A stretch of DNA of 64,000 nucleotides, from positions 65,412 to 129,411 of the forward strand of contig JAWSVA010000010.1 of NCBI GenBank assembly GCA_033852155.1, read 5' to 3'. This DNA comes from Gammaproteobacteria bacterium (GTDB taxonomy: Bacteria; Pseudomonadota; Gammaproteobacteria; QZLD01). A program made the translations under genes and the position numbers. Below the pieces are notes generated by a model. That model did no database searches and was not told where the DNA came from. It saw only the letters and a list, made by a program, of their open reading frames with translations. Position 1 is the stretch's first letter. Every line of letters begins with the position of its first letter. Positions 41,508 through 64,000 of this stretch are shown here, in pieces.

Positions 41508-42170
41508 TTAAAGAGAGTTTTTAAGCTCCCTAATCTTCCCAACATACTCTTCAGCTATTGCAGACTTTTCATCAACTGTCTTAGCGCCATCCAGAAGCTT
41601 AGTTACAATCTCATCAGTTTTATCGATAACTTTTGAGATTTCCTCTTCAGTTACTCCAGCTTTCGCTAATAGTCGATCCCTATTTTCAGCAACTTTAGAC
41701 GCTGATAACAAGAACGATGTAACAGAGTTGTTAATCGCCTTGGCCTGCGCATATTCATTCTTGAGTGAATGCTCAATCTGCCTTTCAAGCTCATCAAGTG
41801 GTCTAATTAGCTCTAATCTTTTTTGATTTATGGTTTCTTGCAGGCTGGTGCCAACTTTCATAAGAAACTTGGTTCTTTGCTTGTTATCATTTTCGCGTAC
41901 TACTGTATTCCAAGCATTGGCTATCTGCGGTCTACGGAAGAACTCATTGGAAAATGTTGGTAGCCATTCATGCTCAATAAAGGTATCAATGTCTTTGCGC
42001 TTTTGTTCAAAGAATCTATTTAAAAGCCTTATATTAGCTTCTTCTAGGCTTTCAATACGTTTACCCAATTCTGATGAAAGAGTTGGGGCTTCAGATGGGA
42101 TGTTTGCGCAACCAGAGAAGCTAAATACAACTATTCCCAAAGCTACAAATCTAAATAATCCTTTTATCAT
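41508..42170 (-). CDS. coiled-coil lipoprotein, function unknown
   Basis: Signal peptide with lipobox (FRFVALGIVVFSFSGC) then a largely helical, heptad-rich sequence. Start placed at the MIKGL Met. Lies 12 nt downstream of the DUF4157 gene. Confidence 0.5.
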   Translation of the reverse strand: MIKGLFRFVALGIVVFSFSGCANIPSEAPTLSSELGKRIESLEEANIRLLNRFFEQKRKDIDTFIEHEWLPTFSNEFFRRPQIANAWNTVVRENDNKQRTKFLMKVGTSLQETINQKRLELIRPLDELERQIEHSLKNEYAQAKAINNSVTSFLLSASKVAENRDRLLAKAGVTEEEISKVIDKTDEIVTKLLDGAKTVDEKSAIAEEYVGKIRELKNSL

Positions 42171-42215
42171 TCTGTTTTCCTTTTTACTACTCACTAATAA
42201 CAATAACCAATTTAT

Positions 42216-44636
42216 TTAAGACTTCCAGTATTTATGCATCCACGCTGATATGGTATCCCACTGCCCCCAGTCGACACCATCATCCATCTCGTCCTTACTA
42301 ATACCATTTTTTCCGCCTAAGTATTCACCATCTAAATTAAGAATCATTTGGCGTACTATATATACAATTGCATCCTCATCATCGTTATCACAGTTGCCAT
42401 CTAAAAGAACGCGTATTATGGCGACCCATTTTTCTTTGGTTAGGTTGTAATACGGTATCGGTTGTACAAGTAGTCCCCGCCACTGGCCAATTTTTGTTAG
42501 CCATCTAGCTGCAACATCATCATTATCTTTTATAATCCAATTGGCTCCAGCATTATTTGCAGGATCTGACTTCAAGGTATACATATAAAGGAAGAAATCC
42601 CAGTTATCCCCCTGAATAGAGTTATCAAACACATCCATGCCAATATCTTTAATCAGCCTCTGGCATACCTCATCACTCTGGTAATAAAGAATCGCTATTA
42701 CAGCAACCTCTTCATCATCCATACATAAACCGTCAACTGTTTCCTCTTCAAACAGGTCATACCAATTATCAGTTGGCTTATTCAATAATGACATAATTAT
42801 ATGTTTTAACGCGCTATAAGGCAGGTATAGAGCATTTATCCTGCTTACATCTATCTTGCCTTTGTCGTTGGTCAGGAATGTCATAATGTCGTCATCGACA
42901 TCAGTTTTCATAAACCCTGGGTCATGCAGGACCTTTTCATAGAATTTGCATGTTTTCTCATATATTTTCTGTTCTACTGGGTCACTCTTTTTCCCAAGAG
43001 CAAGTGTTTGCTCTGTAGTTAGCTCATTCCCCTTTTCATCTTTATGCGCGGCACGCCAGGCATTCATGATTTCTGCCTGTGTTTTTGTTACTTTGCCAGA
43101 TGACGTACTGACCTCTTCATTTTCCACTTTGCCGCCAGTGAACTTATCCATATCGGTTTCCATTGCATGCCAAATTGGCCCTGCAACTGGATCTTTCATA
43201 ATCTTGGGAATGTTTGGACCGGGGTTTGGCATTGGTTTTTCCGCCTTAATAGCAGATGGCTTGACCCCTGTTGCTATAGAATAGATCTCAGCGATTGAGT
43301 TATATGATTCACCACCAACAATCTCAGCATCCTCATTAGTCCCTGTGCCATCACCATGAAACTTATGCGAAGTATTACGGCTATAACGCATATCTATGCC
43401 GGTTTCTAAATCACAGAGGATGTCATGATAGGTTTTAGATCTAAAATCAGGCCCGTCAAATGCTGAATCAAATGCACGCGGGTATTGATGCCCTGATGCG
43501 AAAGTATCCTGCAGAAAATGGAGTGCAAATGCTTCATGAATTAAAGCGTTATGCATTGAGTCTTTTGCTTTGCCTAATTTATTCTCTTTTAACTCACGAT
43601 TTGCAGCTGCAGCATAACCTTTTGCGGTCTTATGATTAGCCTCCCATTCACACTCTGCTAACGGGAAAAAATGGTTCCAGTTAGTTTTGGCTAAAGCAAT
43701 ATACGGAGATACTATTGCTGTAAGGCCTTCGGCTCCATATTGGTCTTTATCCATATCTTGTGCTGTTCTACTGTGGTCTCCTGCATTTTTAGTTGCCCAG
43801 CCAAGACTTTTTCTTTTAGGTTTTACTTGGGTTTCAGTAGTTTGACCTTCGCCATCATCTACCTCTACTTCTACTTCTTCACGAAACTCAATAGAATATT
43901 CATCTCCAAACCCTAGCCCTGAGTGTTCACCCTTAGCTTTGGAGTTTATCTTTTTAAGCCCTTCAAGCAATGTACTTTTATGTTGCACCAGTTTTTGCCC
44001 AGCGATATCTCCATAGCTTTTATGTTCTTTGGCACCCCATTTGCGCAGTGTATTACCAGAATCCTGCTGCATAGTATGCGCAATTTCATGGGTTAATATT
44101 GCCTGTCCTGATTCAGTATTTGGGGCATATTGTCCCTGGCCAAAATATATATCACGTCCGACACTAAATGCCTTTGCATCTACAGCGTTTGCAGCCTCAG
44201 CCGCACCACTACCAGTGTGTACTCTCACATTAGAAAGCGATTGACCGTAATATGATTCATACCCTTGTCTTTGTGAACCAGAAAGTGATGCGCCACTTTG
44301 CTCAAAGCCAAGGTTAATTCCATTGGATGATGAAACTGGAGATGTCTTGAATGGAGCGTTTTTGCCACCAGACATATAACCTGCAGCTGCAGAATCAGCT
44401 TGCTGTTCACTGGGGTCGCCGCTGGAACCAAACTTAAGTTTTCCCTTAGCAGATGATGCATAGAGGATATCTCTTATTTGCTCTTGCCTATCGGCACTGT
44501 TTGACTCTTTGCAAACGACATCATTGCATTTTGCTGGTGATTCTTGTTTTTCAGCTGCGCGTTGTTTCATTAAGTTCTCTAGCTTTGTATCAATTGGCGA
44601 AAGATTTTTCGCCCCTACACAACTCATCATTCCCAC
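42216..44636 (-). CDS. DUF4157 (zincin-like HExxH) domain protein with large uncharacterised C-terminal region; candidate eCIS cargo/toxin
   Basis: 806 aa. Residues ~115-190 (GASLSGSQRQGYESYYGQSLSNVRVHTGSGAAEAANAVDAKAFSVGRDIYFGQGQYAPNTESGQAILTHEIAHTMQQ) match the DUF4157 signature VRVHT...A.AFT.G.DI.F..G.Y.P.T..G..LLAHELTHVVQQ almost position for position. The N-terminal ~100 aa is low-complexity and disordered. The C-terminal ~600 aa matches no known domain. Sits immediately downstream of the eCIS structural genes on the same strand. Confidence 0.8.
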   Translation of the reverse strand: MGMMSCVGAKNLSPIDTKLENLMKQRAAEKQESPAKCNDVVCKESNSADRQEQIRDILYASSAKGKLKFGSSGDPSEQQADSAAAGYMSGGKNAPFKTSPVSSSNGINLGFEQSGASLSGSQRQGYESYYGQSLSNVRVHTGSGAAEAANAVDAKAFSVGRDIYFGQGQYAPNTESGQAILTHEIAHTMQQDSGNTLRKWGAKEHKSYGDIAGQKLVQHKSTLLEGLKKINSKAKGEHSGLGFGDEYSIEFREEVEVEVDDGEGQTTETQVKPKRKSLGWATKNAGDHSRTAQDMDKDQYGAEGLTAIVSPYIALAKTNWNHFFPLAECEWEANHKTAKGYAAAANRELKENKLGKAKDSMHNALIHEAFALHFLQDTFASGHQYPRAFDSAFDGPDFRSKTYHDILCDLETGIDMRYSRNTSHKFHGDGTGTNEDAEIVGGESYNSIAEIYSIATGVKPSAIKAEKPMPNPGPNIPKIMKDPVAGPIWHAMETDMDKFTGGKVENEEVSTSSGKVTKTQAEIMNAWRAAHKDEKGNELTTEQTLALGKKSDPVEQKIYEKTCKFYEKVLHDPGFMKTDVDDDIMTFLTNDKGKIDVSRINALYLPYSALKHIIMSLLNKPTDNWYDLFEEETVDGLCMDDEEVAVIAILYYQSDEVCQRLIKDIGMDVFDNSIQGDNWDFFLYMYTLKSDPANNAGANWIIKDNDDVAARWLTKIGQWRGLLVQPIPYYNLTKEKWVAIIRVLLDGNCDNDDEDAIVYIVRQMILNLDGEYLGGKNGISKDEMDDGVDWGQWDTISAWMHKYWKS

Positions 44637-53946: not shown

Positions 53947-53983
53947 TTTTTGAACCTAAATCCTTAGATAAATCTTTTTCATT

Positions 53984-54175
53984 TGGTGGGCATTGCCCAC
54001 CCTACGTTCTGTTACTTCAATCAAGCACACTTCGACTACGCTCAGTGAACTTGTTTTTGTTGGGCTTCGCAAGCTCAGCGCCAACCTACATTCATTACCT
54101 TATTTCCCTTCACTTCGACCTTGGTTTATCTCGAGCGTAGTCGAGAGGCTCAGCGGGCGGAAAATAATCAGCAAT
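53984..54175. repeat. intergenic repeat copy (b): GGTGGGCATTGCCCACC palindrome, CTTCGACTACGCTCAG, CCTACATT and GAGCGTAGTCGAG modules
   Basis: Read directly from the sequence. Fills the 245-bp gap between the spike and gp25 genes. Confidence 0.65.
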
Positions 54176-54191: not shown

Positions 54192-54992
54192 CTACGCAGA
54201 CGTTACCTTCATCGACAGTGTAGACATCTCACCCTGCGGTATGGGTGGACCCGAAGGCCCCATACTTGTCGGGTGAATATGGGTAGCAAACATGGTGAGA
54301 AAACTCTGACCTTTGATAATCGGCTCTCCACCTGCGCCACCTAGCTGTACTTGCGTTGCATCAAGGTTAATGGTTTGTGCTTGAATCTTTATTCCTGCAG
54401 CACCCATCTCAACCTTATTACCATTACTGTCTTCAACCACGACTCCACTTGAATCCATAGTTGCTGTATTACCATTGGCATCAACAATCTCTATCGAGCC
54501 GCCTTCGGCATCCATAGTAAGTGCGCCATCATCTTGCGCACGTAGTTCAATCGAACCATTATTATCAATTTTAAAAATGGCACCACCTGAGTGGGTAATA
54601 AGGATCTCTTCTTCATCTTCCTTATCTTCTAGCTCAATAGAGTGTCCTGACTGTGTGCGCAAAATCTTTCTGGTTGGTTGTGCACCTTCGCCAGTTGGCA
54701 TTGCCTGTTCTGGCTGCCAAAAAGTTCCTGTCCAGATTGGATGTGATACCATCCCCTCTTCAAACTCAACCCACACTTGGGCATCAACTTCTGGAATAAA
54801 ACTCATACCAACATTATCCATACCGCCATATGGAAGGCATGGCAAAGCCCATCCGGTAACCTCTTCACCAAGTACCGAAGGCACCATAAGTTTAAGCTTA
54901 CCGAGTTTATCTGGGTCTTCTCTGTCCACTACGAAACCACGGTATTTACCGTAGTAGCGTTGTGTTGATGAGTTTTGTGTTTCGTCTGTCAT
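54192..54992 (-). CDS. gpV/gp5-like baseplate spike protein (OB-fold + beta-helix; VgrG C-terminal half equivalent)
   Basis: 266 aa starting YYGKYRGFVVDREDPDKLGKLKLMVPSVLGEEVTGWALPCLPYGGMDNVGMSFIPEVDAQVWVEFEEG...HPIWTG, a textbook Phage_base_V OB-fold. It is followed by Gly/Asn-rich beta-helix repeats. Confidence 0.8.
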   Translation of the reverse strand: MTDETQNSSTQRYYGKYRGFVVDREDPDKLGKLKLMVPSVLGEEVTGWALPCLPYGGMDNVGMSFIPEVDAQVWVEFEEGMVSHPIWTGTFWQPEQAMPTGEGAQPTRKILRTQSGHSIELEDKEDEEEILITHSGGAIFKIDNNGSIELRAQDDGALTMDAEGGSIEIVDANGNTATMDSSGVVVEDSNGNKVEMGAAGIKIQAQTINLDATQVQLGGAGGEPIIKGQSFLTMFATHIHPTSMGPSGPPIPQGEMSTLSMKVTSA

Positions 54993-55011
54993 ATACCTTT
55001 CAATTCTATTT

Positions 55012-55185
55012 GGTGGGCAGTGCCCACCCTACATTCATGTGTTTTACCGTATGCATTCCCACGCAGAGCGTGGGAACGAGAAAAAACAAGTCGGCTGAGC
55101 GTAGTCGAAGCCTCTTGTTTTTCAACAAATTCATCCTTATTTTCCTTCACTTCGACTACGCTCAGCGGGCGGAAAATATATAGCA
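55012..55185. repeat. intergenic repeat copy (c): GGTGGGCAGTGCCCACC, CCTACATT and TTCCCACGCAGAGCGTGGGAA palindromes plus a 16-bp inverted pair CTGAGCGTAGTCGAAG / CTTCGACTACGCTCAG
   Basis: Read directly from the sequence. Lies between the hub and spike genes. Confidence 0.65.
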
Positions 55186-55246: not shown

Positions 55247-56386
55247 TTAAATCAACGCAGCCAAGCTACCCAGCAGGCCACTTTCAATATTGTCACCAAA
55301 GGCATTACGAATAAGCTTAAAATTCTGCTGATATCCTTCAAAGGAGAAGCTGTGGGTTACTGAATCAACGTAATAAATTCCACCCAACCAATCACCAACT
55401 CCATCTACCGGAACTGGCTCTCCTACTCGTAAAACATGTCCATAGAAGGTGCCATCAAGAATACCTTGCGCCTTTACCTTCATCGATAATTCATTTGCCT
55501 TGGCCTGCGCCAAAGTTAACCTATCCTCTTCACTTACACCTGCTCCCTGATTGCGCATCTTCCAGGTGAAATCCGGTAGGCCAGAACCACTACTATCAGC
55601 CGCTGTTGTTCCCATTAAAGGAAGGTTTGAGGCTATAGTCTGAGTGACTACACCTGCTCCATTTTCCGCTGCCACATCGAAGGCAACCATGTCTGGAGAA
55701 TGGGAATCAACGTTGCTGGAGAAATTGATACAATTGGTATCGTCACCGGCGTAAACCATGATGTTTGCCTGTGGTTCCATCTCTAATCGCATCGGACCGA
55801 AATATATCAACCCTTCGCTGATTATCAGTTCATAGCCGTTTGCTATGGCGCGATCCTGCAGAAATACGATATCAGTAGAGTCCTGGTTTATTACTAATGA
55901 TTGTTTACCGACCTGACTATCGGGATGTACAGCTAAACCATGGTTACCTGCAATCTCGGCAACTATCACAGCATCTGTAGTTGGAGCAGTTGCCCCCCAT
56001 GATTTACCTACATGTAATCTATCTAAGGCAATCGATTCATCCTGACAATTCACAGTAACAACGCAGTTATTGTCACTTGGGTAATCAACCGACATCTCAC
56101 GGATATATCCGCGCATAACCTCTTCAGTGTTATCGCCAAAAACAGCCTCGATAACTATTGGCTCCCATGGAAGAAAGATACCTGCGTCTTGCACATCCCA
56201 AGTGCCATCGGTGTCTCTAACTGTGTTGAAAGTCAAAGTGGCTGTGGTAGCTCCTTCTCTGGATGCGTCTACTTTCACCTGTTGCAGATATTGGTAGAAA
56301 TCGGAGATCTCGCTCTCTTGCGATCCTACCTTTATCTTGCACTCTGCCGGGGCATTGTTTTGGGTGAATAATGAGAGTAGTGACAT
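55247..56386 (-). CDS. phage late control gene D-like baseplate hub (gp27/VgrG N-terminal half equivalent)
   Basis: 379 aa sitting immediately before the gpV-like spike as a separate gene. Size and architecture are consistent with Phage_GPD. Confidence 0.55.
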   Translation of the reverse strand: MSLLSLFTQNNAPAECKIKVGSQESEISDFYQYLQQVKVDASREGATTATLTFNTVRDTDGTWDVQDAGIFLPWEPIVIEAVFGDNTEEVMRGYIREMSVDYPSDNNCVVTVNCQDESIALDRLHVGKSWGATAPTTDAVIVAEIAGNHGLAVHPDSQVGKQSLVINQDSTDIVFLQDRAIANGYELIISEGLIYFGPMRLEMEPQANIMVYAGDDTNCINFSSNVDSHSPDMVAFDVAAENGAGVVTQTIASNLPLMGTTAADSSGSGLPDFTWKMRNQGAGVSEEDRLTLAQAKANELSMKVKAQGILDGTFYGHVLRVGEPVPVDGVGDWLGGIYYVDSVTHSFSFEGYQQNFKLIRNAFGDNIESGLLGSLAALI

Positions 56387-56574
56387 CGTTTTATCTATAG
56401 GCCTCGATTTGTTTTACCACTTTTACATATTCGGATGTAGCTTTATCAGCAATCCCGCGGCACATACCTATGCCTTTGGCTATAAGCTCTATACATAGCT
56501 TTTTTACCAATCTGAAAAGAATTAATTTTTTAACTTTTTTCATGTTCCTTTGCCTTTTTTGATGTTTTTAAAAC

Positions 56575-56695
56575 AAAGTGGTTTCGACTACGCTCAACCG
56601 ACTTGTTTTTTGGTGCAATGCGCTTCGCTTATTGACACCCTACATTTTCCGTCCTTCAATCTATGCATTCCCACGCAGAGCGTGGGAACGAGAAG
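56575..56695. repeat. intergenic repeat copy (d): GTTTCGACTACGCTCAA, GCTTCGCTTATTGACACCCTACATT and TTCCCACGCAGAGCGTGGGAACGAG
   Basis: Read directly from the sequence. Lies between the LysM and hub genes. Confidence 0.65.
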
Positions 56696-56706
56696 GTATT
56701 TTATTA

Positions 56707-57000
56707 TTATTCAGATTCCCGCGGAATCAGAATAATCTCACCAATCATATTGCTATCTAACATCAGGTCGGCTCCGTATGAGATATGGGGATTAGCATCC
56801 AGAATGCGCCACCACATACGGTCGTTGTTGTAGTAGTTTTGTGCTAGATGGTCTAAACGGTCACCCTGCTTTATCTCATACTCAACTACGCCTGTTGCCG
56901 GTTTAATATCTCTGAATCTCAGCCCTTTAAAGCCAGTTCCGCTAGTTTCGGATGGAGTAAATCCCGGTGTGTCTTTGTATCTAGATCTATCGGCTCTCAT
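56707..57000 (-). CDS. LysM-domain protein (Afp7/Pvc7-like baseplate/tube-initiator associated)
   Basis: 97 aa with the LysM signature YEIKQGDRLDHLAQNYYNNDRMWWRILDANP. Start overlaps the stop of the upstream tube-like gene (ATGA). Confidence 0.65.
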   Translation of the reverse strand: MRADRSRYKDTPGFTPSETSGTGFKGLRFRDIKPATGVVEYEIKQGDRLDHLAQNYYNNDRMWWRILDANPHISYGADLMLDSNMIGEIILIPRESE

Positions 57001-57635
57001 CAGAACAGGCCTCCTATCTGATTACCAAGATTCATAGCTGCTCCTATAACCTGGCGAATCTTCTCTGCTTTGTAGAAGATGTTGTTCCCTTCGATTACCT
57101 TCATAGAAAGGCTTACCTTGGCGCGATATGGAACTAGATTTGGGAAATGGTCGAGCTGCTCGACAGTGATTGATGTCAGAAATACTGGCAAAACATGACT
57201 GCCCCAGATAAACAACAATACTGAAGCAGACTTATCACGCTGAAATGCTCTGCTGCCACCGAAACCTAATCCAGCCAACATCTGCATTCCGCCAGGGCCG
57301 CTCTCTTTCGGCTCTACCATTGTTCTTAAAGTATCTAACTCTGGTTCGATACCGAAAGTCTCAGCAATTGTATTACCCTCTTCCAATCTATCAGTTGCAT
57401 CAATCAATACGTCGATGGTGAAGGTTTCTGGTTCTACACTTACACCTTGTGCAACCTTTGGAGTCTCTGTAGGTAAAACAAAATCATAACCACTTCTACC
57501 AGGAACATTGGTTTTTTTAATGGTAATGGTTCTGGTTCTGGTAAGGGTTTTTGGATTGAAATCGAACCCTAATACCAACGGTGGTATTGAGAGTGCATAT
57601 TCAACCAAAACTCCTTTTGTAACATTTAACATCAA
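57000..57635 (-). CDS. second tail-tube-family protein (Afp5/tube-initiator-like), tentative
   Basis: 211 aa. The N-terminal segment LVLGFDFNPKTLTRTRTITIKK and the C-terminal hydrophobic beta pattern resemble gp19/Afp tube proteins. Position directly before the LysM gene mirrors Afp5-Afp7. Confidence 0.4.
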   Translation of the reverse strand: MMLNVTKGVLVEYALSIPPLVLGFDFNPKTLTRTRTITIKKTNVPGRSGYDFVLPTETPKVAQGVSVEPETFTIDVLIDATDRLEEGNTIAETFGIEPELDTLRTMVEPKESGPGGMQMLAGLGFGGSRAFQRDKSASVLLFIWGSHVLPVFLTSITVEQLDHFPNLVPYRAKVSLSMKVIEGNNIFYKAEKIRQVIGAAMNLGNQIGGLF

Positions 57636-57922
57636 GCTATACCTTGCTGCTGCGTAGTTGTATTTTTAGAATGCGTACTTTGAGAATTGACGTTTTGACC
57701 ACCAAGGCTTTGCGAAAGAATAGAGTTAGCTATATTCCCTGCAATCGATTCATCGCTATCATTTACCTTTGCAATCACATCTGAAACCGACATAACATCA
57801 ATAGTTGCCGAATTTGTAATTTTGGCATTTTGTAGATATTCACCAATCAAACGCGCTATGTTCTGTCCTCGCGCATCAAAACCTTCTGGCAGTTGAATCG
57901 ACATTCTATCTATATGAATCAT
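57632..57922 (-). CDS. small hypothetical protein within the eCIS operon
   Basis: 96 aa, translationally coupled (4-nt overlap) to the downstream tube-like gene. Polar Q/N/S-rich C-terminus. No PAAR motifs. Confidence 0.3.
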   Translation of the reverse strand: MIHIDRMSIQLPEGFDARGQNIARLIGEYLQNAKITNSATIDVMSVSDVIAKVNDSDESIAGNIANSILSQSLGGQNVNSQSTHSKNTTTQQQGIA

Positions 57923-57935
57923 TGTTCCCTCTCTT

Positions 57936-59282
57936 TCAATTCAAACCACCCTCTAAATATTCCTTAAGGGGTCCAAGGTCTGAATCAAGTAGCTCTCTGC
58001 CATCTTTTGCCATCTCGCGCCAAACTGCAGTAGCGAGGTGTTTATATTCAATCTGTGTTGCATCAGCGGCTGCAAGATACGCTGCATTTAGTGCTGCATT
58101 CTTGATATTTCCGCCATTAAAATTAGAGATTTTCGCTAAAACTGACAAATCAATTTCACTAGATATCGGAGCCTTTGGTGGCAAGCTTTTGCCCCAAATA
58201 TTCTTACGTGAATTAGCATCAGGGCGCGGAAATTCGACCACAACTTGAAAGCGTCGTAAAAAAGCTGAATCTATATTCTTACGGATATTTGTAGTTAGAA
58301 TGCATGGAGTACTAATTGTCTCCAGGCGTGATAACAGGTGACTTACTTCAAGGTTGGAATAACGATCTTTAGATTCCTTGATATCGCCTCTTTTGCCAAA
58401 CAAACTATCCGCTTCATCAAATAGTAAAACTACATCACGACACTCGGCTGTATCGAAAAGACTATTAAGGTTCTTTTCAGTTTCACCAATATATTTACTC
58501 ACCAAACGCCCTAAATCTACTTTATACAGTGGGCGTCCAATCTCGCTGGCAATGATAGATGCCGCTAGTGTTTTACCTGTTCCAGATGGCCCACTAAAAA
58601 GGGCTATCGGTCCGCCAGATTTTTTACCTTGCCACTGCTCAATTACGGTAGATTTATACTTAATCCAGTTGAGATATTCCTGCAACATCTGAACACGGTC
58701 AGCAGGAAGGATAAGGTCACCCCATGAATACTCTTCATCAACCAGGGTTGCACCAGGAAGTTCGATAGCACTGTTGTCGTTGCCAAGAAACAGCTGTACT
58801 ACACCAGGCATCAAACGTAGAGGAGAATAAAGCTCAAACTCCTCATGCTTTATCAGGTTCTCATTTAGCAAGCTTGAGCCGCGCTCAAACACTTTGTAGA
58901 ACTCACCAAGCACTCTCAAATCGATGCAAAGTAGATCTATCAATAATGCTGCAGATGGAAAGTTAGAATTGGTTGATTGCAATCTTTGATATGCCCAACC
59001 CACAGCTGGGTCAAGCTCTGGGGCCAACATGCACGCTAGAACATCGGCCTCCATTAATGACAGTTCAAGTTTACATATACTTTCCCAAAATGGCTGATTG
59101 TTCCTCAGCGAGAAAATCTTATTCTGAACTGCACTTAGTTTTTCGTATTCACTGTTATCTACCGTACCAGCCTTACGGCTTGTCTCTAGAATCGAGCAAA
59201 GAATACGTACCCTTTCACACTCAAGCTCGAGTGTAGCCAGATCGTTATCTTTAAACTCATCTAAAGCAGTGGCTAACTTCAT
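57936..59282 (-). CDS. AAA+ ATPase (eCIS Afp15/Pvc15-like, single AAA module)
   Basis: 448 aa with Walker A (GPSGTGKTLAASIIA), Walker B (VLLFDEADSLF) and an arginine-finger region. The N-terminal ~200 aa is non-ATPase. Embedded in the tail-like cluster. Confidence 0.8.
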   Translation of the reverse strand: MKLATALDEFKDNDLATLELECERVRILCSILETSRKAGTVDNSEYEKLSAVQNKIFSLRNNQPFWESICKLELSLMEADVLACMLAPELDPAVGWAYQRLQSTNSNFPSAALLIDLLCIDLRVLGEFYKVFERGSSLLNENLIKHEEFELYSPLRLMPGVVQLFLGNDNSAIELPGATLVDEEYSWGDLILPADRVQMLQEYLNWIKYKSTVIEQWQGKKSGGPIALFSGPSGTGKTLAASIIASEIGRPLYKVDLGRLVSKYIGETEKNLNSLFDTAECRDVVLLFDEADSLFGKRGDIKESKDRYSNLEVSHLLSRLETISTPCILTTNIRKNIDSAFLRRFQVVVEFPRPDANSRKNIWGKSLPPKAPISSEIDLSVLAKISNFNGGNIKNAALNAAYLAAADATQIEYKHLATAVWREMAKDGRELLDSDLGPLKEYLEGGLN

Positions 59283-59914
59283 TTATCAGCCTCACAAACA
59301 GTAGTTTTAATACCGTGTTCTTTTACCGTGTCCATATCTGCTTTTTTATATGAGATATCAGACACAGTGATGAGAGAAACTTTTTCCACTGGAGGAGCCG
59401 GAATCTTTTTCTCTTTAGGAATAATCGGTGTTATTGAAATTTCGTATCCAATCGATGGTCTGTAGGTAACATCACGCTGATTGTTCCACACCTGATTAAT
59501 CTCTTCGATGGTCAACCCTTGTTGAATAATCTGTATAAAGAACTCTTCACCATCTTCAATCTTCACCTGTACAAATGGTTTCTCATGCAAGATGCGGATA
59601 ACTTCGCCCAGAAAACGCAGATCGTTTTCTCCAGAGCTGACATTATCTTCAGTAACTGCAAATGGAGTTATCAGGCAATGGGTCTTAGTCATTAAATTCT
59701 CGCCTGATGTGGTATCTGGCGAAAATGCATAAGGCTCAATTCTATAAAAGAAAAGATTAATCTTATGGTCAGAATCCTGCCCTGCTGGTTGAGCATTGGC
59801 TGGATTACCCAGCACTACGCGAACATCAGAACCATCATCAATAATATTATCACTGATATGTCTGGCAACCGCGTTGCAAACCTTTGATAGGGAAGAAGGA
59901 GAAGGAGCTGCCAT
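59279..59914 (-). CDS. putative tail terminator/cap protein (DUF4255/Pvc16_N-like), tentative
   Basis: 211 aa, the typical DUF4255 size. N-terminal pattern VRVVLGNPANAQP...INLFFYRIEP fits the G.P...LFLY.V.EN consensus I recall for this family. Stop-start coupled (TAAATG) with the upstream gene. Confidence 0.4.
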   Translation of the reverse strand: MAAPSPSSLSKVCNAVARHISDNIIDDGSDVRVVLGNPANAQPAGQDSDHKINLFFYRIEPYAFSPDTTSGENLMTKTHCLITPFAVTEDNVSSGENDLRFLGEVIRILHEKPFVQVKIEDGEEFFIQIIQQGLTIEEINQVWNNQRDVTYRPSIGYEISITPIIPKEKKIPAPPVEKVSLITVSDISYKKADMDTVKEHGIKTTVCEADK

Positions 59915-61300
59915 TTATATTCTCCTCGTATAGTATTTACTAGAGCCAGATTTACTAGAGCTAGCGTTACTAGAAAAACTACTATTGCTGGATTGACTGC
60001 TAGATGCAGATGAGAAATGATTAGCGGATTCACTTTTAGGTTCTGGAGCAGCAGTAACGATTACATCAATATGTCCAATGCTAACTTTAGGCTGCAACTG
60101 ATTTGCTTTAGAAGAACGGTTTTCACCTTGTGGTTTATTCTTTAGCTTCTGCGCCCTGTTATTCGAACGTTTTGAACCCAGCTGTTTTCTACCATTCAAC
60201 TCAAATAGGTCTTCAATTTGAGTCTCAGCTTCAGATTTTTCTTTTTGATTAGATGGTCTATATCTGTTTTTAGATTGTTTTGAATCTGATGATAGAGCAC
60301 TTACAGCAGACTCTAACTCGGAGAAGATACTAGTCATATCTATCGACTTTTCACCTTCACCGTTAGCATGTTTTTTAGATAAGCGTTCAGAACTTTTTTC
60401 TAAACGCTCAGGCCCTCTAGTGTAACGCTCAGGCCCGTTTTCTAAACGCCCAGGCTGAGTGCGCTGCCCCTGACTGTCTCTCAGATTTATGCCTTCTTCA
60501 TCAATACTCGTCTTACTTTCACGTTGATTTATCTGACTCTTAGTGAGTTCGACCTTTCGATCATAGAAAGACTTGTCTGAATTATAGCGATTGTGCAAAA
60601 TTTTATCACACTCACGCCCAACAGAACTGCTCTCAAAAAACTCAGAATCCGACATATAATCACGATCATTTTCAGCACCATACTTCAGCTTCCGATCTAT
60701 ACTGGATTTATTCACATTAATTTCATGTAAATGTTCATCAGAACCACCACCTTTTGGGTTAATCATTTGTGACTCTTCAGAACAAGGGACATTATCACGC
60801 ACTCTAGATCGCGTTTTCAGCGACCGTTCTACCTGAACACTGTGTAACTCAGCAGCTAAGTCAATTTGAAGGTCATCTTCAATTGACTGTTCATCTGCAG
60901 AGTTAAATTCTTCTCCCTCAACTTCAGGAGTATTGGTTTGGATCTTTTGACTAGATAATTTCGAGCTCTGTAAATTACCATTTTCTAAATTATGCCCTTC
61001 ACGCATAAGGCTATGCGACACATCTTTATCAACTGATTCTTTACTGAATCGCGGTATATGGATATCAGAATCAATATTGGCATCAGCCAAAGGAAATGCA
61101 TTTGAATTGTCCTGCAGGTGACTACTCTGATGACCAGTTTTTTGTAAGCTAGTTTTTGAAGAGCTCAGGCTCGACAAATCGTGGCTGTGTAATCCTTGGT
61201 CATCCGCGTTATTAGAAGAACTATTTGAGCGCATAAAACCACGCTTGGCAGAAGTATTTCCTGCAGCACAGTCCTGAATTATCTCGCTAAAAAATCCCAC
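59915..61300 (-). CDS. highly disordered Ser/Asn/Lys/Glu-rich 461-aa protein (tape-measure candidate or cargo)
   Basis: Almost no hydrophobic segments and Ser-rich termini. Sits between the sheath/tube genes and the cap/ATPase genes. Confidence 0.4.
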   Translation of the reverse strand: MGFFSEIIQDCAAGNTSAKRGFMRSNSSSNNADDQGLHSHDLSSLSSSKTSLQKTGHQSSHLQDNSNAFPLADANIDSDIHIPRFSKESVDKDVSHSLMREGHNLENGNLQSSKLSSQKIQTNTPEVEGEEFNSADEQSIEDDLQIDLAAELHSVQVERSLKTRSRVRDNVPCSEESQMINPKGGGSDEHLHEINVNKSSIDRKLKYGAENDRDYMSDSEFFESSSVGRECDKILHNRYNSDKSFYDRKVELTKSQINQRESKTSIDEEGINLRDSQGQRTQPGRLENGPERYTRGPERLEKSSERLSKKHANGEGEKSIDMTSIFSELESAVSALSSDSKQSKNRYRPSNQKEKSEAETQIEDLFELNGRKQLGSKRSNNRAQKLKNKPQGENRSSKANQLQPKVSIGHIDVIVTAAPEPKSESANHFSSASSSQSSNSSFSSNASSSKSGSSKYYTRRI

Positions 61301-61329
61301 TATATAACCTCTTCTTTCAACCTTTTGTT

Positions 61330-61436
61330 GGGTTTCGCACTCAGCACCAACCTACATTTTTCTTCAAAGTACCATCATATTTTCCTACCCTTCACTTGTG
61401 CTGAGCGTCGCCGAAGTGCGCTCAGGGGTCGGAAAT
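61330..61436. repeat. intergenic repeat copy (e): CACCAACCTACATTTTTC, CCTTCACTTGTGCTGAGCG and GCGCTCAGGGGTCGGAAATAATC modules
   Basis: Shares the CCTACATT core and the TTCACTTCGAC...GCTCAGCGGGCGGAAAATAAT-type tail with copies b and c. Confidence 0.6.
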
Positions 61437-61438
61437 AA

Positions 61439-62290
61439 TCACTCTTCAGCAAAAGAGTCCTTATCTATCAAACCAAGATAGGTCTCTCTTCTACTTCTGC
61501 TTAGTGCCAAAATCTCCGCCTCACTCCAATTATAATTAAGAGCTATAGTGTGGATCTCATTAAACAGATCTTTTCCGCCTTCCTTTTGCAACAAGTAGTA
61601 CGGATCTAAACGAATTTGATGCTCTGTCCCACACTCTGGGCAACCAGCATTAATACTAGTAATAATTCCCGGAGAAACCTCATCAAGCGCCGCCTCAATC
61701 TTCTCCAGATCTTCAGCGGTAAACTCAAGATTCTCATTAGAACAAAGGCATAATCCGATTAATAAATCTTCGGCGCCTTTCATATCTATTTTACGATTGG
61801 TCTTATCTGTAAGACTTGCTACTGCCTCTTGGTCAACACCAGTTGGGACACGGAATGTTTTAGCCCCATGTGATGTATCAAGAGTAATGAACGGAAAACT
61901 CTTCTGAGCAGGAGTTACTGGAAAATCAGAATTGGTAAGTTGGAAATCAAAATCCGCCTTACAATTTGAGCACTTTTTAGAAAACCAATAAGAATCATAA
62001 CCAAGCATAATTGCCAGTTTGCGCATCAGAAACTGTCTGTCGGCAACCGAAAAATTATGGACGATATCGCGAGTAGGCTTCCTACCCTCAAAGGTCTCTA
62101 GTGCAGCCACCAATACAGACGTAACCAAAGATGGCACAGATGTAACCTGAGCAGAAAGTGAAGCAGGAGCAGATTCAACCCCTACCATCGCTTCAATAAT
62201 ATCCAGCTCCATCTGCCCGGTTAAAGAGCGAAAACTATAGCTCTTTAAACAGGTTCGGCCATCCCAATATCCACCAGGAAGTGTTTCCAC
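61439..62290 (-). CDS. hypothetical eCIS-associated protein with putative Cys4 zinc ribbon
   Basis: 283 aa with CSNCK...(~100 aa)...CPECG cysteine pairs. No family recognised. Located between the tube gene and the disordered protein. Confidence 0.3.
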   Translation of the reverse strand: METLPGGYWDGRTCLKSYSFRSLTGQMELDIIEAMVGVESAPASLSAQVTSVPSLVTSVLVAALETFEGRKPTRDIVHNFSVADRQFLMRKLAIMLGYDSYWFSKKCSNCKADFDFQLTNSDFPVTPAQKSFPFITLDTSHGAKTFRVPTGVDQEAVASLTDKTNRKIDMKGAEDLLIGLCLCSNENLEFTAEDLEKIEAALDEVSPGIITSINAGCPECGTEHQIRLDPYYLLQKEGGKDLFNEIHTIALNYNWSEAEILALSRSRRETYLGLIDKDSFAEE

Positions 62291-62324: not shown

Positions 62325-62834
62325 CTAAGCTTCAGTCGGCTCTGATACGCTAGTATCTCTTTCCCAGCCTTCATGCTGCAAAGTGACAGTTTGAATACCA
62401 ACAGCGTTCATGCTACCAGCATCCAAATCAGGCAATGCCTGAAAATCAGAAACCCAAGCACGATAAAGCTTATAAGAGATAGCAACCTCACCTTGCAGAT
62501 TAAGGACATTGATGATGATATCTTTTCTGAAGTTCTTTAAAGAGATCGCAGAATCGCCATCAATATTGTTCACTGACTTAGCCCAATCCTCAAAAATAGG
62601 ATCGTGAGTCAAACCCATCTCTAAAGTAACAGGCTCGTAGCTTGAACCACCAGGCATTACTCTCTCGTGAGAAGGATCGCCTGCACTACGCCATTTAACC
62701 GCTTCAGTCTTTTTCTTCAGTGCGCCCATCTTGCGTAGACCAGCTACTGACTTACCATCGATAATCACCTGAAACTTAAAAGTTCTGTAAGGATCATGAC
62801 GGTGCGTATTAACATTAAACATTGGTGCTGCCAT
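62325..62834 (-). CDS. contractile tail tube protein (T4 gp19 / Afp1-Pvc1 family)
   Basis: 169 aa. YRTFKFQVIIDGKSVAGLRKMGALKKKTEAVKWRSAGDPSHERVMPGGSSYEPVTLEMGLTHD matches the tube-protein signature F.F.V.I.G..V.G.....GL....EV.EYR.GG...PG...Y..vTL..G.t.D. Confidence 0.85.
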   Translation of the reverse strand: MAAPMFNVNTHRHDPYRTFKFQVIIDGKSVAGLRKMGALKKKTEAVKWRSAGDPSHERVMPGGSSYEPVTLEMGLTHDPIFEDWAKSVNNIDGDSAISLKNFRKDIIINVLNLQGEVAISYKLYRAWVSDFQALPDLDAGSMNAVGIQTVTLQHEGWERDTSVSEPTEA

Positions 62835-62911: not shown

Positions 62912-64000
62912 TTATTGCTGTCCAACTTTTTGTTGGATTCTCAAGATTACAAACTCAGCAGGTTTTAACGGCGCAAAACCAACAACAGCAATAACTTGTC
63001 CTCTGTCGATATCAGCTTGAGTCATTGTGTCACCAAGTCCACAACGCACAAAATAAGCATCAGAAGCCTTAGTACCTTGGAAGGCACCGGCACGGAAAAG
63101 ACCATTCATAAACGATTCAATATTCACACGCAGTGAAGACCAAAGGTCATTATTATTTGGCTCAAACACAGCCCATTGAATGCCGTCAGAAACGCTTTCC
63201 TCAATAAACATAGCTGTTCTTCTGACAGGAACATAACGCCACTCAGGGTCAGCCTTAGTGGCCAGAGTACGCGCACCCCAAACAACAGAACCATAAGATG
63301 GCAATGTTCTAAGAGCATTAACACCAAGAGGATTCAGATAATCCTGCTCGCTATCTTCAACGATATACTCAAGACCATTAAGGCCAAGTACACCAGTTTC
63401 AACACCAGCAGGAGCTTTCCACACACCACGTCTAGCGTCAGTCTTAGCCCATATGCCAGCTGCAAAAGCAGAAGACTGAACCAATACATTCTTAGCAGCT
63501 CCTGGGTTAGTGTCTGCATTATAGAAAGGATTTGAAACTTGCGCCCAAGGATAATAAGTTGCGCAGTAAGTTTTAGTAGGAAGACCAAGATCGGTAACAT
63601 CCTTCTCTTGCTCCAGCTCAGTGCTAGGAGGAAGATCGACGATAACCATACGGCTCTTCATCTGCTCACAGTGAGCCACCGCAGATTCAATCGCAGGCTT
63701 ATGAGCGCTGTTCCACCATTTGCCAGGAAGACAGATAACATTGATATCACGAATCTTCACAAACTTAGCGAATACATAATCATAAGCGCCGTTATCAGCA
63801 GCAGCACCATCTTTGCCACCTTCCAACACAACCTCAACCGCATCACCAGCAGCAAGCTTATTAATAGCAGCAGCTTTAAGGCCAGATAAAGCCTCAGCAG
63901 AGATATAGTTTGAAACACCGTTGATATTACCAACGATATACTCAGCTTTATCAGCAGAGTTTAAGCTGATGTCAGCGAATCTCTCTGCAGCTTCAAAATC
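62912..64000 (-). CDS. contractile tail sheath protein (gp18/Afp2-4 family), 5' end beyond window
   Basis: The reading frame stays open on the minus strand from 63829 to position 64000 (checked codon by codon), so the gene is truncated by the window edge. The C-terminal region (GVNALRTLPSYGSVVWGARTLA...AYFVRCGLGDTMTQ) is typical of the sheath C-domain. Confidence 0.8.
   Translation of the reverse strand, partial: DFEAAERFADISLNSADKAEYIVGNINGVSNYISAEALSGLKAAAINKLAAGDAVEVVLEGGKDGAAADNGAYDYVFAKFVKIRDINVICLPGKWWNSAHKPAIESAVAHCEQMKSRMVIVDLPPSTELEQEKDVTDLGLPTKTYCATYYPWAQVSNPFYNADTNPGAAKNVLVQSSAFAAGIWAKTDARRGVWKAPAGVETGVLGLNGLEYIVEDSEQDYLNPLGVNALRTLPSYGSVVWGARTLATKADPEWRYVPVRRTAMFIEESVSDGIQWAVFEPNNNDLWSSLRVNIESFMNGLFRAGAFQGTKASDAYFVRCGLGDTMTQADIDRGQVIAVVGFAPLKPAEFVILRIQQKVGQQ

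What the first reader, a model, noticed from the sequence alone, without database searches (positions are those of the whole stretch)
59915..61300. 461-aa intrinsically disordered Ser/Lys/Glu/Asn-rich protein embedded between tube and cap genes
The translation has essentially no hydrophobic core, long polar low-complexity stretches and Ser-rich tails. It occupies the slot where Afp/PVC loci carry the tape-measure protein (before the ATPase/cap genes), but tape-measure proteins are normally helical. Alternatives are a lumen-loaded cargo or scaffold protein, or a length-determining ruler of unusual composition.
Basis: partly seen in the sequence, partly recalled or inferred. Interest (0 to 1): 0.55.

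Follow-up and report, generated by a model that had tools for sequence, protein, structure and literature searches.

The report
Disordered candidate ruler of an injection system
This 461-residue, almost structure-free protein sits where phage-tail-like injection machines keep their length-measuring protein. It belongs to an unnamed but widespread family with two conserved end motifs joined by a floppy spacer, and it is the best candidate for the tape measure that published work reports as absent from lineage II and Streptomyces clusters.

Summary
Window 61300..59915 (minus strand) encodes a real 461-aa protein that is extremely hydrophilic (GRAVY -1.13, 18% Ser) and predicted to be mostly unstructured. 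It is under purifying selection.

It lies in a contractile-injection-system operon: sheath, gp19 tube, gp51-like protein, this gene, Pvc16-type cap, AAA+ ATPase, baseplate genes, DUF4157 cargo candidate. This is the position of gpT (tape measure) in phage P2, and it is close to that of Afp14.

By sequence it is not an Afp14-type tape measure: it has no CIS_TMP match and is not helical. It belongs instead to an unnamed family. I recovered 34 further syntenic loci from other bacteria, and all 34 carry a 296-716 aa protein in this slot with three features:
- an N-terminal GFFxxIIxD motif
- a C-terminal PxVxIGxI(D/E)VVV motif
- a terminal SRxYLRxL end

Between these motifs is a spacer whose composition follows genome GC (Spearman 0.88). 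The Ser/Asn/Lys/Glu richness here is therefore just what such a spacer looks like at 42% GC.

My best reading (about 0.55) is an intrinsically disordered "anchor-spacer-anchor" length ruler, a functional analogue of tape measure proteins. Published work says lineage II and Streptomyces clusters lack a tape measure gene although particle length is uniform. Function remains untested.

The parts
59915..61300 (-). Target gene: 461-aa disordered 'slot' protein, a candidate tape-measure analogue. GTG start, TAA stop.
61308..61313 (-). Shine-Dalgarno-like AAGAGG, 7 nt upstream of the GTG start.
   Evidence: read directly from the sequence
61268..61300 (-). N-terminal anchor motif, aa 1-11 (M)GFFSEIIQDC. 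The hydrophobic i, i+1, i+4, i+5 pattern suggests an amphipathic helix. It is conserved as GFFxDIIRDSRR-like in other lineages.
60911..61267 (-). Variable polar spacer I (aa 12-130). It is rich in indels between homologues.
60446..60910 (-). Clade-specific conserved polar block (aa 131-285): DLAAELHxVQVER...NVPCSEESQ...SFYDRKVEL...INLRxSQGQR. Conserved only in the gammaproteobacterial clade, with low-confidence short helices.
60396..60455 (-). In-frame 21-nt (7-aa, GPERYTK/GPERLEK) tandem repeat. There are 2.9 copies here and 5.2 in orthologue L001, so this is a length-variable module.
60287..60346 (-). Conserved short helix (aa 319-338, SIDMTSIFSELESAVSALSS). It is the only segment with high AF2 confidence (pLDDT about 87).
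60095..60286 (-). Basic Lys/Arg/Asn/Gln-rich spacer II (aa 339-402).
60050..60094 (-). C-terminal beta-type anchor motif (aa 403-417, QPKVSIGHIDVIVTA). The invariant I-G and alternating hydrophobic residues are the family signature PxVxIGxI(D/E)VVV.
59945..60049 (-). Ser-rich tail linker (aa 418-452). It is 28-34 aa in this clade and 13-16 aa in other lineages.
59918..59944 (-). Extreme C-terminal motif (aa 453-461, SSKYYTRRI). The family consensus is ASRxYLRxL, always at the very end of the protein.
61439..62290 (-). Upstream 283-aa protein with two CxxC pairs. It matches Pfam T4_baseplate (25.5 bits, cut-off 24.5) and PHROG 150 'baseplate hub' (1.4e-7). It occupies the P2 E/E' (tape-measure chaperone) position.
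62325..62834 (-). gp19-type tail tube protein (169 aa).
62912..64000 (-). Tail sheath gene. It runs off the window end.
59279..59914 (-). Pvc16_N/DUF4255 cap (tail terminator), 211 aa. Its start codon abuts the target's stop.
57936..59282 (-). AAA+ ATPase (Cis15/Afp15 type).
55247..57635 (-). Candidate docking partners at the hub: a CIS_tube-like 211-aa tube initiator (57635..57000), a LysM/tail-X-like 97-aa protein (57000..56707) and a 379-aa hub protein (56386..55247). The Streptomyces gene at the same operon position is annotated as VgrG/Pvc8 family.
54192..54992 (-). Phage_base_V spike (266 aa).
42216..44636 (-). 806-aa eCIS_core (DUF4157) protein with a polar low-complexity N-terminal region (read from the translation) and a HEIAH motif. 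It is the operon's canonical cargo candidate, so the cargo role is already accounted for.

Best explanation
The gene encodes the length ruler (tape-measure analogue) of a lineage-II-type contractile injection system. It is built as anchor, disordered spacer, anchor, rather than as a helical rod.

**Shown**
- It occupies the tape-measure position of a P2-like tail module.
- It belongs to a family defined by three short motifs: N-terminal GFFxxIIxD, C-terminal PxVxIGxI(D/E)VVV, and a terminal SRxYLRxL.
- These motifs are joined by a spacer of roughly 250-650 residues that is poor in hydrophobic residues. The spacer's sequence, composition and length vary freely.
- No other tape-measure candidate exists in the operon.

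**Inferred, by analogy with phage and eCIS tape measures**
1. The C-terminal strand motif and the free C-terminal end dock in the baseplate hub (379-aa hub, 211-aa tube initiator, 266-aa spike). The gp51-like protein encoded upstream helps this step.
2. The unstructured spacer runs up the lumen as gp19 tube rings stack around it.
3. When the tube reaches the span the spacer allows, the N-terminal amphipathic motif is presented to the Pvc16-type cap, encoded immediately downstream. Capping stops tube and sheath growth.
4. On firing, the protein is expelled with the spike.

**Predicted length.** At the empirical eCIS ratio of 0.216-0.229 nm per residue, 461 aa predicts a particle of about 100-106 nm. 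The 7-residue tandem repeats and indel-rich spacers are the parts through which length would evolve.
For: **Position**
- The gene order sheath, tube, gp51-like, target, cap, and further on hub, spike, gp25, J matches P2's FI, FII, E/E', T ('putative tail length determinator'), U, D and V, W, J, I.
- Afp14 likewise neighbours the ATPase and the DUF4255 cap.

**Family architecture**
- Six syntenic loci found through cap homologues and 28 of 28 usable metagenomic loci carry a 296-716 aa slot protein with all three end motifs. Hydrophobic content is 12-25%.
- Five more distant plasmid loci (Streptomyces, Mycobacterium, Paracoccus) show degenerate versions of the motifs.
- Profile-profile comparison aligns only the IG motif (P 5e-5).

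**A spacer that behaves like a linker**
- Its composition tracks genome GC (Spearman 0.88, p 1.6e-12, n=36).
- Slot proteins in other lineages contain 8-29% proline, with values near 20% common in high-GC loci. Such spacers cannot be helical rods.
- In-frame heptad repeat number varies between orthologues.
- It has the highest dN/dS in the operon, yet the value is below 1.

**Exclusion**
- No other operon protein matches a tape-measure family.
- In the syntenic locus L002 only housekeeping genes lie upstream of the sheath gene.
- A DUF4157 cargo candidate is present elsewhere in the operon.

**Literature**
- Streptomyces CIS particles are uniform in length although a tape-measure gene is reported absent (PMC10066040; PMC12237407; PMC10286715).
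- Deleting the coiled-coil tape-measure-like effector Sle1 in S. lividans leaves particles without apparent structural defects (PMC13277306).
- Alg14 acts as a ruler at 0.229 nm per residue (10.64898/2026.05.27.728243).
Against: - There is no experimental evidence for this protein or for any family member.
- There is no sequence or profile similarity to Afp14/CIS_TMP, to any Pfam, NCBIfam or PHROG family, or to any PDB chain.
- Characterised tape measures are helical and sit in the lumen as helix bundles. How a disordered chain would set a precise length is unclear.
- If the chromosomal Streptomyces slot proteins are as short as the plasmid ones (about 300-480 aa), one fully extended chain (up to about 0.38 nm per residue, from general knowledge) could not span the reported 230-300 nm particles. 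I could not retrieve those sequences.
- Which end binds which partner is pure analogy.
- The AF2 disorder call rests on a shallow alignment.
Confidence: 0.55

Rival explanations
1. Assembly scaffold or chaperone. It would nucleate or bridge hub, tube, cap and ATPase during assembly through its two end motifs. It would not measure length and would not be kept in the finished particle.
For: - The conserved end motifs joined by a flexible tether fit a bridging factor.
- It is encoded between the gp51-like assembly protein and the cap and ATPase genes.
- The cap start codon abuts its stop.
- The wide spread of lengths (296-716 aa) would matter little for a tether.
Against: - The position equals that of the tape measure in P2 and Afp.
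- A separate gp51-like protein already fills the chaperone slot.
- Particles in related lineages have a uniform length and no other known ruler.
Confidence: 0.17
2. Lumen-loaded cargo or filler. The unfolded polypeptide would be threaded into the tube by the AAA+ ATPase and injected, either with an effect of its own on the target or as a plug.
For: - eCIS cargos carry disordered N-terminal loading sequences and are thought to be loaded at least partly unfolded by the Cis15-type ATPase (10.64898/2026.05.27.728243).
- This protein is almost entirely disordered.
- The clade-specific conserved 155-residue block could be a functional payload.
Against: - It has no DUF4157 and no folded effector domain.
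- The operon already has an 806-aa DUF4157 cargo candidate at its far end.
- Cargo loading sequences are similar within a system but not between systems. These end motifs are conserved across Proteobacteria, with degenerate versions in Actinobacteria.
- The gene sits in the invariant structural core, not in the variable payload region.
Confidence: 0.13
3. Some other role not covered above. Examples are a disordered regulator or localisation factor for the CIS, such as tethering particles to a cellular structure or controlling the ATPase or cap.
For: - The lineage includes cytoplasmic and membrane- or thylakoid-anchored systems (titles and abstracts listed).
- Disordered tethers with short linear motifs are common in regulation (general knowledge).
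Against: - There are no membrane segments or known interaction domains.
- Strict placement inside the tube-cap module in all 35 loci points to a structural role.
Confidence: 0.12
4. Spurious or decaying ORF, that is, non-functional spacer DNA that happens to be open.
For: - It has the fastest evolution in the operon (dN/dS 0.35-0.49).
- It is low in complexity and has no database family.
- In two Streptomyces plasmid loci the available gene table lists only the last 53-57 codons.
Against: - The open frame is kept at full length in every syntenic locus examined, from several phyla, with the same three motifs at the same ends.
- dN/dS is below 1.
- Indels preserve the frame.
- A ribosome-binding site is present and the gene is tightly packed with the cap gene.
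Confidence: 0.03

Closest known systems
Afp14 / Pvc14 / Alg14 tape measure proteins of extracellular contractile injection systems (Pfam CIS_TMP, PF19268)
   Same: - It is encoded next to the AAA+ ATPase and the DUF4255 cap.
- Its size is similar (Afp14 535 aa, target 461 aa).
- The presumed job is to set particle length from inside the tube. Alg14 has been shown to be a ruler at 0.229 nm per residue.
   Different: - No sequence or profile similarity: Afp14 hits CIS_TMP at 1.9e-49 and the target does not hit it at all; hhalign probability is 0.06%.
- Afp14 is hydrophobic and folded by composition (GRAVY -0.26, 33% ILVFMWY) and eCIS tape measures have a helical centre. The target has GRAVY -1.13, about 14% helix and low AF2 confidence.
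- Gene order differs: cap then ATPase here, ATPase then cap in Afp.
Phage P2 gpT (and, from general knowledge, T4 gp29) myophage tape measure proteins
   Same: - The syntenic slot is identical: sheath, tube, chaperone-slot gene, this gene, terminator.
- Expected topology: C-terminus at the spike or hub, with the rest in the tube lumen.
   Different: - gpT is 815 aa, Ala/Leu-rich and helical, and forms a three-helix bundle near the spike.
- The target family has a disordered spacer, Pro-rich in many members, and a short beta-type C-terminal motif.
- There is no detectable homology.
Type III secretion rulers FliK and YscP (from general knowledge; not tested here)
   Same: They are largely unfolded, extended polypeptides whose length sets the length of a tubular structure. 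They have functional modules at the ends and repeat-mediated length variation.
   Different: - They belong to an unrelated machine. They are secreted through the growing structure and switch export specificity through a T3S4 domain.
- No such domain is detected in the target (no Pfam hit).
Tape-measure-related CIS effectors of Streptomyces (Tme in PMC11126660; Sle1 in PMC13277306)
   Same: They are lumen-associated proteins of lineage-II-type CIS with large disordered fractions (Tme about 70%) and proposed contact with the hub or spike.
   Different: - Those proteins are large coiled-coil or transmembrane proteins with effector domains or DUF4157 partners. They are encoded upstream of the sheath gene or just before the baseplate genes.
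- Sle1 is dispensable for particle structure.
- The target has no coiled coil, transmembrane segment or enzymatic domain, and it sits between the tube and cap genes.
Disordered N-terminal loading sequences of eCIS cargos (Cgo1/2, Pdp1, Pnf; 10.64898/2026.05.27.728243)
   Same: A disordered polypeptide that presumably lies in the tube lumen and may be handled by the Cis15-type ATPase.
   Different: - Loading sequences are N-terminal tags on folded effectors and are system-specific.
- The target is a whole protein without an effector domain, and its end motifs are conserved across phyla.

Membership tests
Pfam CIS_TMP (PF19268; Afp14/Pvc14-type tape measure) | Significant match to the family profile | tested here: not met
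   The target has no Pfam family at E<=0.01. The positive control Afp14 scores 1.9e-49. hhalign of the target family against Afp14 gives probability 0.06%.
Pfam CIS_TMP (PF19268; Afp14/Pvc14-type tape measure) | Predominantly alpha-helical central region | tested here: not met
   AF2 gives about 14% helix and mean pLDDT 43. The composition falls on the disordered side of the Uversky plot, while Afp14 falls on the folded side. Slot proteins in other lineages contain 8-29% Pro.
Pfam CIS_TMP (PF19268; Afp14/Pvc14-type tape measure) | Encoded adjacent to the AAA+ ATPase and DUF4255 cap genes of a CIS operon | tested here: met
   Window order is target, cap, ATPase. Afp order is TMP, ATPase, cap.
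Pfam CIS_TMP (PF19268; Afp14/Pvc14-type tape measure) | Protein length determines particle length | not testable with these tools
   This needs EM of particles from spacer-length mutants. Only a prediction can be given: about 100-106 nm at 0.216-0.229 nm per residue.
Myophage tape measure (P2 gpT type) | Gene position: after sheath, tube and the chaperone gene, before the tail terminator | tested here: met
   P2 F operon is FI, FII, E/E', T, U, D. The window has sheath, tube, gp51-like, target, cap.
Myophage tape measure (P2 gpT type) | Long helical or coiled-coil protein forming a bundle in the lumen | tested here: not met
   P2 TMP three-helix bundle.
Unnamed lineage-II CIS 'slot' family (defined here) | N-terminal GFFxxI(I/V)xD-type motif at residue 1-12 | tested here: met
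   MGFFSEIIQDC in the target. The same motif type occurs in L004-L009 and in most of the 28 metagenomic loci.
Unnamed lineage-II CIS 'slot' family (defined here) | C-terminal PxVxIGxI(D/E)V(V/I)(V/I) motif followed 13-34 residues later by a terminal SRxYLRxL end | tested here: met
   QPKVSIGHIDVIVTA ... SSKYYTRRI in the target. All 28 metagenomic loci and all 6 genomic loci have both motifs. hhalign P is 5e-5 on the IG motif.
Unnamed lineage-II CIS 'slot' family (defined here) | Spacer poor in hydrophobic residues and variable in length, encoded between a gp51-like gene and a Pvc16_N cap gene | tested here: met
eCIS cargo/effector (DUF4157 type) | eCIS_core (DUF4157) domain and/or a folded C-terminal effector domain behind a disordered N-terminal tag | tested here: not met
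   No DUF4157 hit and no confidently folded domain. A separate 806-aa protein in the operon has the domain.
Type III secretion rulers (FliK/YscP) | C-terminal T3S4 substrate-specificity-switch domain | tested here: not met
   No Pfam family of any kind at E<=0.01. The resemblance is functional only.

The most novel reading that the evidence does not exclude
This family is the 'missing' tape measure of lineage II contractile injection systems, including the Streptomyces-type clusters described as lacking a tape-measure gene despite uniform particle length. It would measure length as an intrinsically disordered chain held by two short anchoring motifs. That is a different physical solution from the helical-bundle rulers of phages, pyocins, Afp, PVC and AlgoCIS.
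Probability: 0.4. Interest if true: 0.75.

Novelty: new variant of a known kind. Interest (0 to 1): 0.6.

Why it matters
Papers from 2019 to 2025 state that lineage II and Streptomyces contractile injection systems have no recognisable tape-measure gene, although their particles are uniform in length. This analysis supplies a specific, testable candidate.

- **The candidate.** It is an unannotated family with a simple sequence signature in the tape-measure slot. No Pfam, NCBIfam or PHROG model covers it. In the available gene tables for two Streptomyces plasmid loci, only the last 53-57 codons are listed.
- **Principle.** If it is the ruler, length control in tail-like machines can be achieved by a disordered spacer between two docking motifs.
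- **Engineering.** Repeat insertion or deletion would give an easy handle for tuning particle length and cargo capacity in engineered injection systems.
- **Annotation.** The signature would also improve annotation of these operons.

Tried and rejected
1. **Motif-only profile search.** I searched the 5.8-billion-protein index with alignment A2, made of the N motif, the IG motif and the end motif. The word index gave only 18 candidates and one 56-aa hit.
2. **PDB sequence searches.** The target family, cap, gp51-like protein, J protein and a 31-sequence C-terminal profile found nothing. Only the tube matched, to Anabaena tCIS 7b5h and AlgoCIS 7adz.
3. **Viral contigs.** The C-terminal alignment was too degenerate to make search patterns. 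A back-translated PKVxIGQIDV pattern found nothing in IMG/VR.
4. **A third, mid-spacer motif.** The hydrophobic-x-hydrophobic..(K/E)EGG motif occurs only in a few subclades. I dropped it as a family feature.
5. **Spacer alignment across lineages.** The spacers do not align. Only the termini are homologous.
6. **RNA fold of the 138-nt spacer upstream of the gene.** The z-score of -1.6 is unremarkable.
7. **An apparent stop-riddled sheath gene.** This was my own frame error. In the right frame the sheath gene simply runs off the window.
8. **A link between the short cap of this clade and the clade-specific central block.** Rejected, because L059 has the block together with a full-length 339-aa cap.
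9. **S. coelicolor and S. lividans chromosomal clusters.** Whether their slot gene fits the family and their 230-300 nm particles remains open.
Full report
**1. The observation**

- The ORF at 61300..59915 (minus strand) encodes 461 aa.
- It starts at GTG, with AAGAGG 7 nt upstream. Its TAA stop abuts the ATG of the next gene.
- Composition is Ser 18%, Glu 9%, Lys 8%, Asn 7%. GRAVY is -1.13. Only 20% of residues are ILVFMWY, against 28-37% in the thirteen neighbouring operon proteins.
- It is the most hydrophilic of the 46 open frames of at least 150 codons in the window, about three standard deviations from their mean.
- It lies on the disordered side of the Uversky charge-hydropathy boundary. 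Afp14 and P2 gpT lie on the folded side.
- AlphaFold2 with a 9-sequence alignment gave mean pLDDT 43 and pTM 0.16, with 384 of 461 residues below 50. It predicted five short helices totalling about 14% of the chain. Only residues 322-338 were confident.
- The alignment is shallow, so this is supporting evidence rather than stand-alone evidence.

**2. It is a real gene**

- Nine proteins in the 5.8-billion-protein index match it at 36-100% identity; one is the identical database entry and eight are distinct homologues. Six cluster representatives match in an exhaustive HMMER scan of 1.84 billion proteins.
- The three genome-collection matches are Gammaproteobacteria MAGs; the other homologues come from unnamed NCBI, Logan and ENA assemblies.
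- All homologues keep the same start, the same end and the reading frame. Indels fall in multiples of three.
- Against orthologue L001, dN/dS is 0.35. This is the highest in the operon (others 0.03-0.13) but clearly indicates purifying selection.

Within this clade, conservation is patchy:

| Region (aa) | Conservation |
|---|---|
| 1-11 | high |
| 131-285 | high |
| 319-338 | high |
| 403-417 | high |
| 453-461 | high |
| 12-130 | low |
| 286-318 | low |
| 418-452 (Ser-rich tail) | moderate |

An in-frame 21-nt repeat (GPERYTK/GPERLEK heptads) is present in 2.9 copies here and 5.2 in L001.

**3. Context**

The gene sits in a contractile-injection-system operon on the minus strand. In order, the genes are:

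| Gene | Note |
|---|---|
| Sheath | runs off the window end |
| gp19-type tube | |
| 283-aa protein | matches Pfam T4_baseplate and PHROG 150 'baseplate hub' |
| **Target** | |
| Pvc16_N/DUF4255 cap | |
| AAA+ ATPase | |
| 96-aa protein | |
| CIS_tube-like protein | |
| Tail-X/LysM-like protein | |
| 379-aa hub | |
| Phage_base_V spike | |
| gp25 | |
| 400-aa J-like protein | assigned by position; no Pfam hit |
| 991-aa baseplate protein | assigned by position; no Pfam hit |
| 544-aa Tail_P2_I-like protein | weak hit |
| 988-aa DUF6519 protein | |
| 806-aa eCIS_core (DUF4157) protein | |

- This mirrors phage P2, whose F operon is FI (sheath), FII (tube), E/E', T ('putative tail length determinator'), U, D, and whose V operon is V, W, J, I. 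The target therefore occupies gpT's slot.
- In the Afp locus on pADAP, the annotated tape measure (Afp14) likewise neighbours the ATPase and the DUF4255 cap.

**4. It is not an Afp14-type tape measure by sequence**

- Afp14 hits Pfam CIS_TMP at 1.9e-49. The target hits no Pfam, NCBIfam or PHROG family.
- hhalign of the target family against Afp14 gives 0.06% probability.
- No PDB chain matches the family or its C-terminal profile.

**5. What it is: a member of an unnamed, widespread family**

- *Genomic loci.* Using cap homologues, I fetched syntenic operons from Desulfobacterales, Variovorax, Syntrophus, a betaproteobacterial MAG and metagenomes.
- *Metagenomic loci.* A metagenome scan with a cap alignment gave 41 loci, 28 of which have enough upstream DNA.
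- *Shared features.* Every one carries, between the gp51-like gene and the cap gene, a 296-716 aa protein with only 12-25% hydrophobic residues. All 34 (6 genomic, 28 metagenomic) share with the target an N-terminal GFFxDIIRDSRR-like motif, a C-terminal PxVxIGxI(D/E)VVV motif and a terminal ASRxYLRxL end.
- *Spacers.* The spacers between the motifs do not align across lineages. Profile-profile comparison picks up only the IG motif (P 5e-5).
- *More distant loci.* Loci on Streptomyces, Mycobacterium and Paracoccus plasmids, found through the tube protein, show the same architecture with degenerate motifs. Examples are SGYLRSLVED...VRIGVVEVRI and TGFLQRLAARI...ITIDRIDVRL.
- *Annotation gap.* In two Streptomyces records, the available gene table lists only the last 53-57 codons of this ORF. 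That table is known to be incomplete.

**6. The composition is explained**

- Across 36 slot proteins, Gly+Ala+Arg+Pro content rises with locus GC (Spearman 0.88, p 1.6e-12). Phe+Tyr+Ile+Asn+Lys content falls (Spearman -0.88).
- At 42% GC a compositionally unconstrained spacer comes out Ser/Asn/Lys/Glu-rich. At 65-74% GC it comes out Pro/Ala-rich (up to 29% Pro).
- The Pro-rich versions exclude a helical rod for the family as a whole.

**7. Mechanism**

*Shown:*
- the tape-measure position
- the anchor-spacer-anchor architecture
- free variation of spacer length through indels and repeats
- the absence of any other tape-measure candidate in the operon or upstream of the sheath gene in the syntenic locus L002, where only infC, rplT, pheST, ihfA and a MerR gene are found
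- a separate canonical cargo candidate with DUF4157

*Inferred, by analogy with phage and eCIS tape measures:*
1. The C-terminal strand motif and the free C-terminus dock in the hub, spike or tube-initiator complex, with help from the gp51-like protein.
2. The spacer runs up the lumen as tube rings stack.
3. The N-terminal amphipathic motif engages the cap when the span is reached, ending growth.

At 0.216-0.229 nm per residue, 461 aa predicts about 100-106 nm. A disordered ruler has a precedent in FliK and YscP of type III secretion (general knowledge).

**8. Rivals**

- *Scaffold that is not retained in the particle.* It is consistent with the tether-like build. It is less parsimonious given the slot and the separate gp51-like gene.
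- *Lumen cargo or filler.* It is consistent with disorder and ATPase-mediated loading. The cross-phylum conservation of the end motifs, the position in the core operon and the presence of a DUF4157 cargo argue against it.
- *Spurious ORF.* Conservation refutes it.

**9. Caveats**

- If Streptomyces chromosomal slot proteins are as short as the plasmid-borne ones, a single chain could not span their 230-300 nm particles. I could not obtain those sequences.
- No function has been tested for this protein or for any family member.

**10. Relation to the literature**

- Chen et al. 2019 report that afp14 homologues are generally absent from lineage II. They note conserved subtype-specific genes of unknown function that might compensate.
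- Three Streptomyces papers state that a tape-measure gene is absent although particle length is homogeneous.
- A 2026 paper finds that the tape-measure-like effector Sle1 is dispensable for particle structure.
- I found no paper in the searchable library that assigns the slot gene.

**Verdict**

The protein is a new, disordered variant of a tape-measure-like component and belongs to an unnamed family. Confidence in the ruler function is moderate (about 0.55). Interest is 0.6.

Noticed in passing
window 42216-44636 (-) and 41508-42203 (-): An 806-aa protein has an eCIS_core/DUF4157 domain (2e-25), a HEIAH metallopeptidase-like motif, a polar N-terminal region and a large C-terminal part with no family hit. 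It is the likely cargo of this system. It is followed by a 231-aa helix-rich protein with a lipoprotein-like signal (…FSFSGC).
   Followed up: partly
window 59279-59914 (-): The cap (Pvc16_N) is only 211 aa here and in L002. Nearly all relatives are 288-368 aa, mostly 334-368, and carry an extra C-terminal domain of about 130 aa. The deletion is clean, because the ATPase start overlaps the cap stop. The close relative L059 (cap about 75% identical) still has a 339-aa cap.
   Followed up: partly
window 53981-54173, 55008-55185, 56562-56694, 61340-61365: Short interspersed repeat elements occupy the intergenic spacers inside the CIS operon. They include two identical 33-nt copies containing a palindrome (TATGCATTCCCACGCAGAGCGTGGGAACGAGAA, at 55050 and 56662) and 29-50 nt inverted arms. 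One fragment lies just upstream of the target gene. Spurious ORFs across them translate to strings such as FPRRAWERE and PTQSVGTR.
   Followed up: partly
window 57632-57922 (-); L004:9351-9584, L005:9371-9616, L006:9363-9596, L007:6358-6591, L008:6375-6608, L009:6382-6699, L010:14465-14731: A small protein (77-105 aa) with no database family follows the ATPase in the eight loci aligned; the Logan locus lists a 78-aa gene at the same position. It starts with the conserved motif MxxIxRLxLxLPAGFxxRAxxIARLxAEALA. Only the window copy has a Gln/Ser/Thr-rich tail.
   Followed up: partly
L010:10362-11261 (S. anthocyanicus plasmid NZ_CP109103) and L015:5697-6587 (Streptomyces sp. NBC_01643 plasmid NZ_CP109267): In the gene tables available, only the last 53-57 codons of the slot ORF are listed as a 'hypothetical protein'. 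The rest of the roughly 300-codon Pro/Ala-rich frame is unannotated. This could contribute to reports that a tape-measure gene is absent from such clusters.
   Followed up: partly
window 61439-62290 (-): The 283-aa gp51-like protein has two CxxC pairs (CSNC near residue 107, CPEC near residue 216), which suggests a zinc ribbon. It is conserved at 240-290 aa in every syntenic locus. It sits in the slot that holds the tape-measure chaperone E/E' in P2.
   Followed up: partly
window 36107-39922 (-): A 1271-aa hybrid sensor kinase (GAF, HisKA, HATPase_c, two receiver domains, Hpt) is encoded on the same strand, about 1.6 kb beyond the last CIS-associated ORF (41508) with one small 226-aa ORF in between. 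It may be a regulator of the system. I did not examine it.
   Followed up: no
L011:5156-6799 (-) and L011:14872-17979 (-): In the S. europaeiscabiei plasmid locus, a DUF4157 protein lies divergently upstream of the sheath gene. A DUF6519 protein follows the ATPase on the opposite strand. The accessory genes are therefore arranged differently from the window.
   Followed up: no
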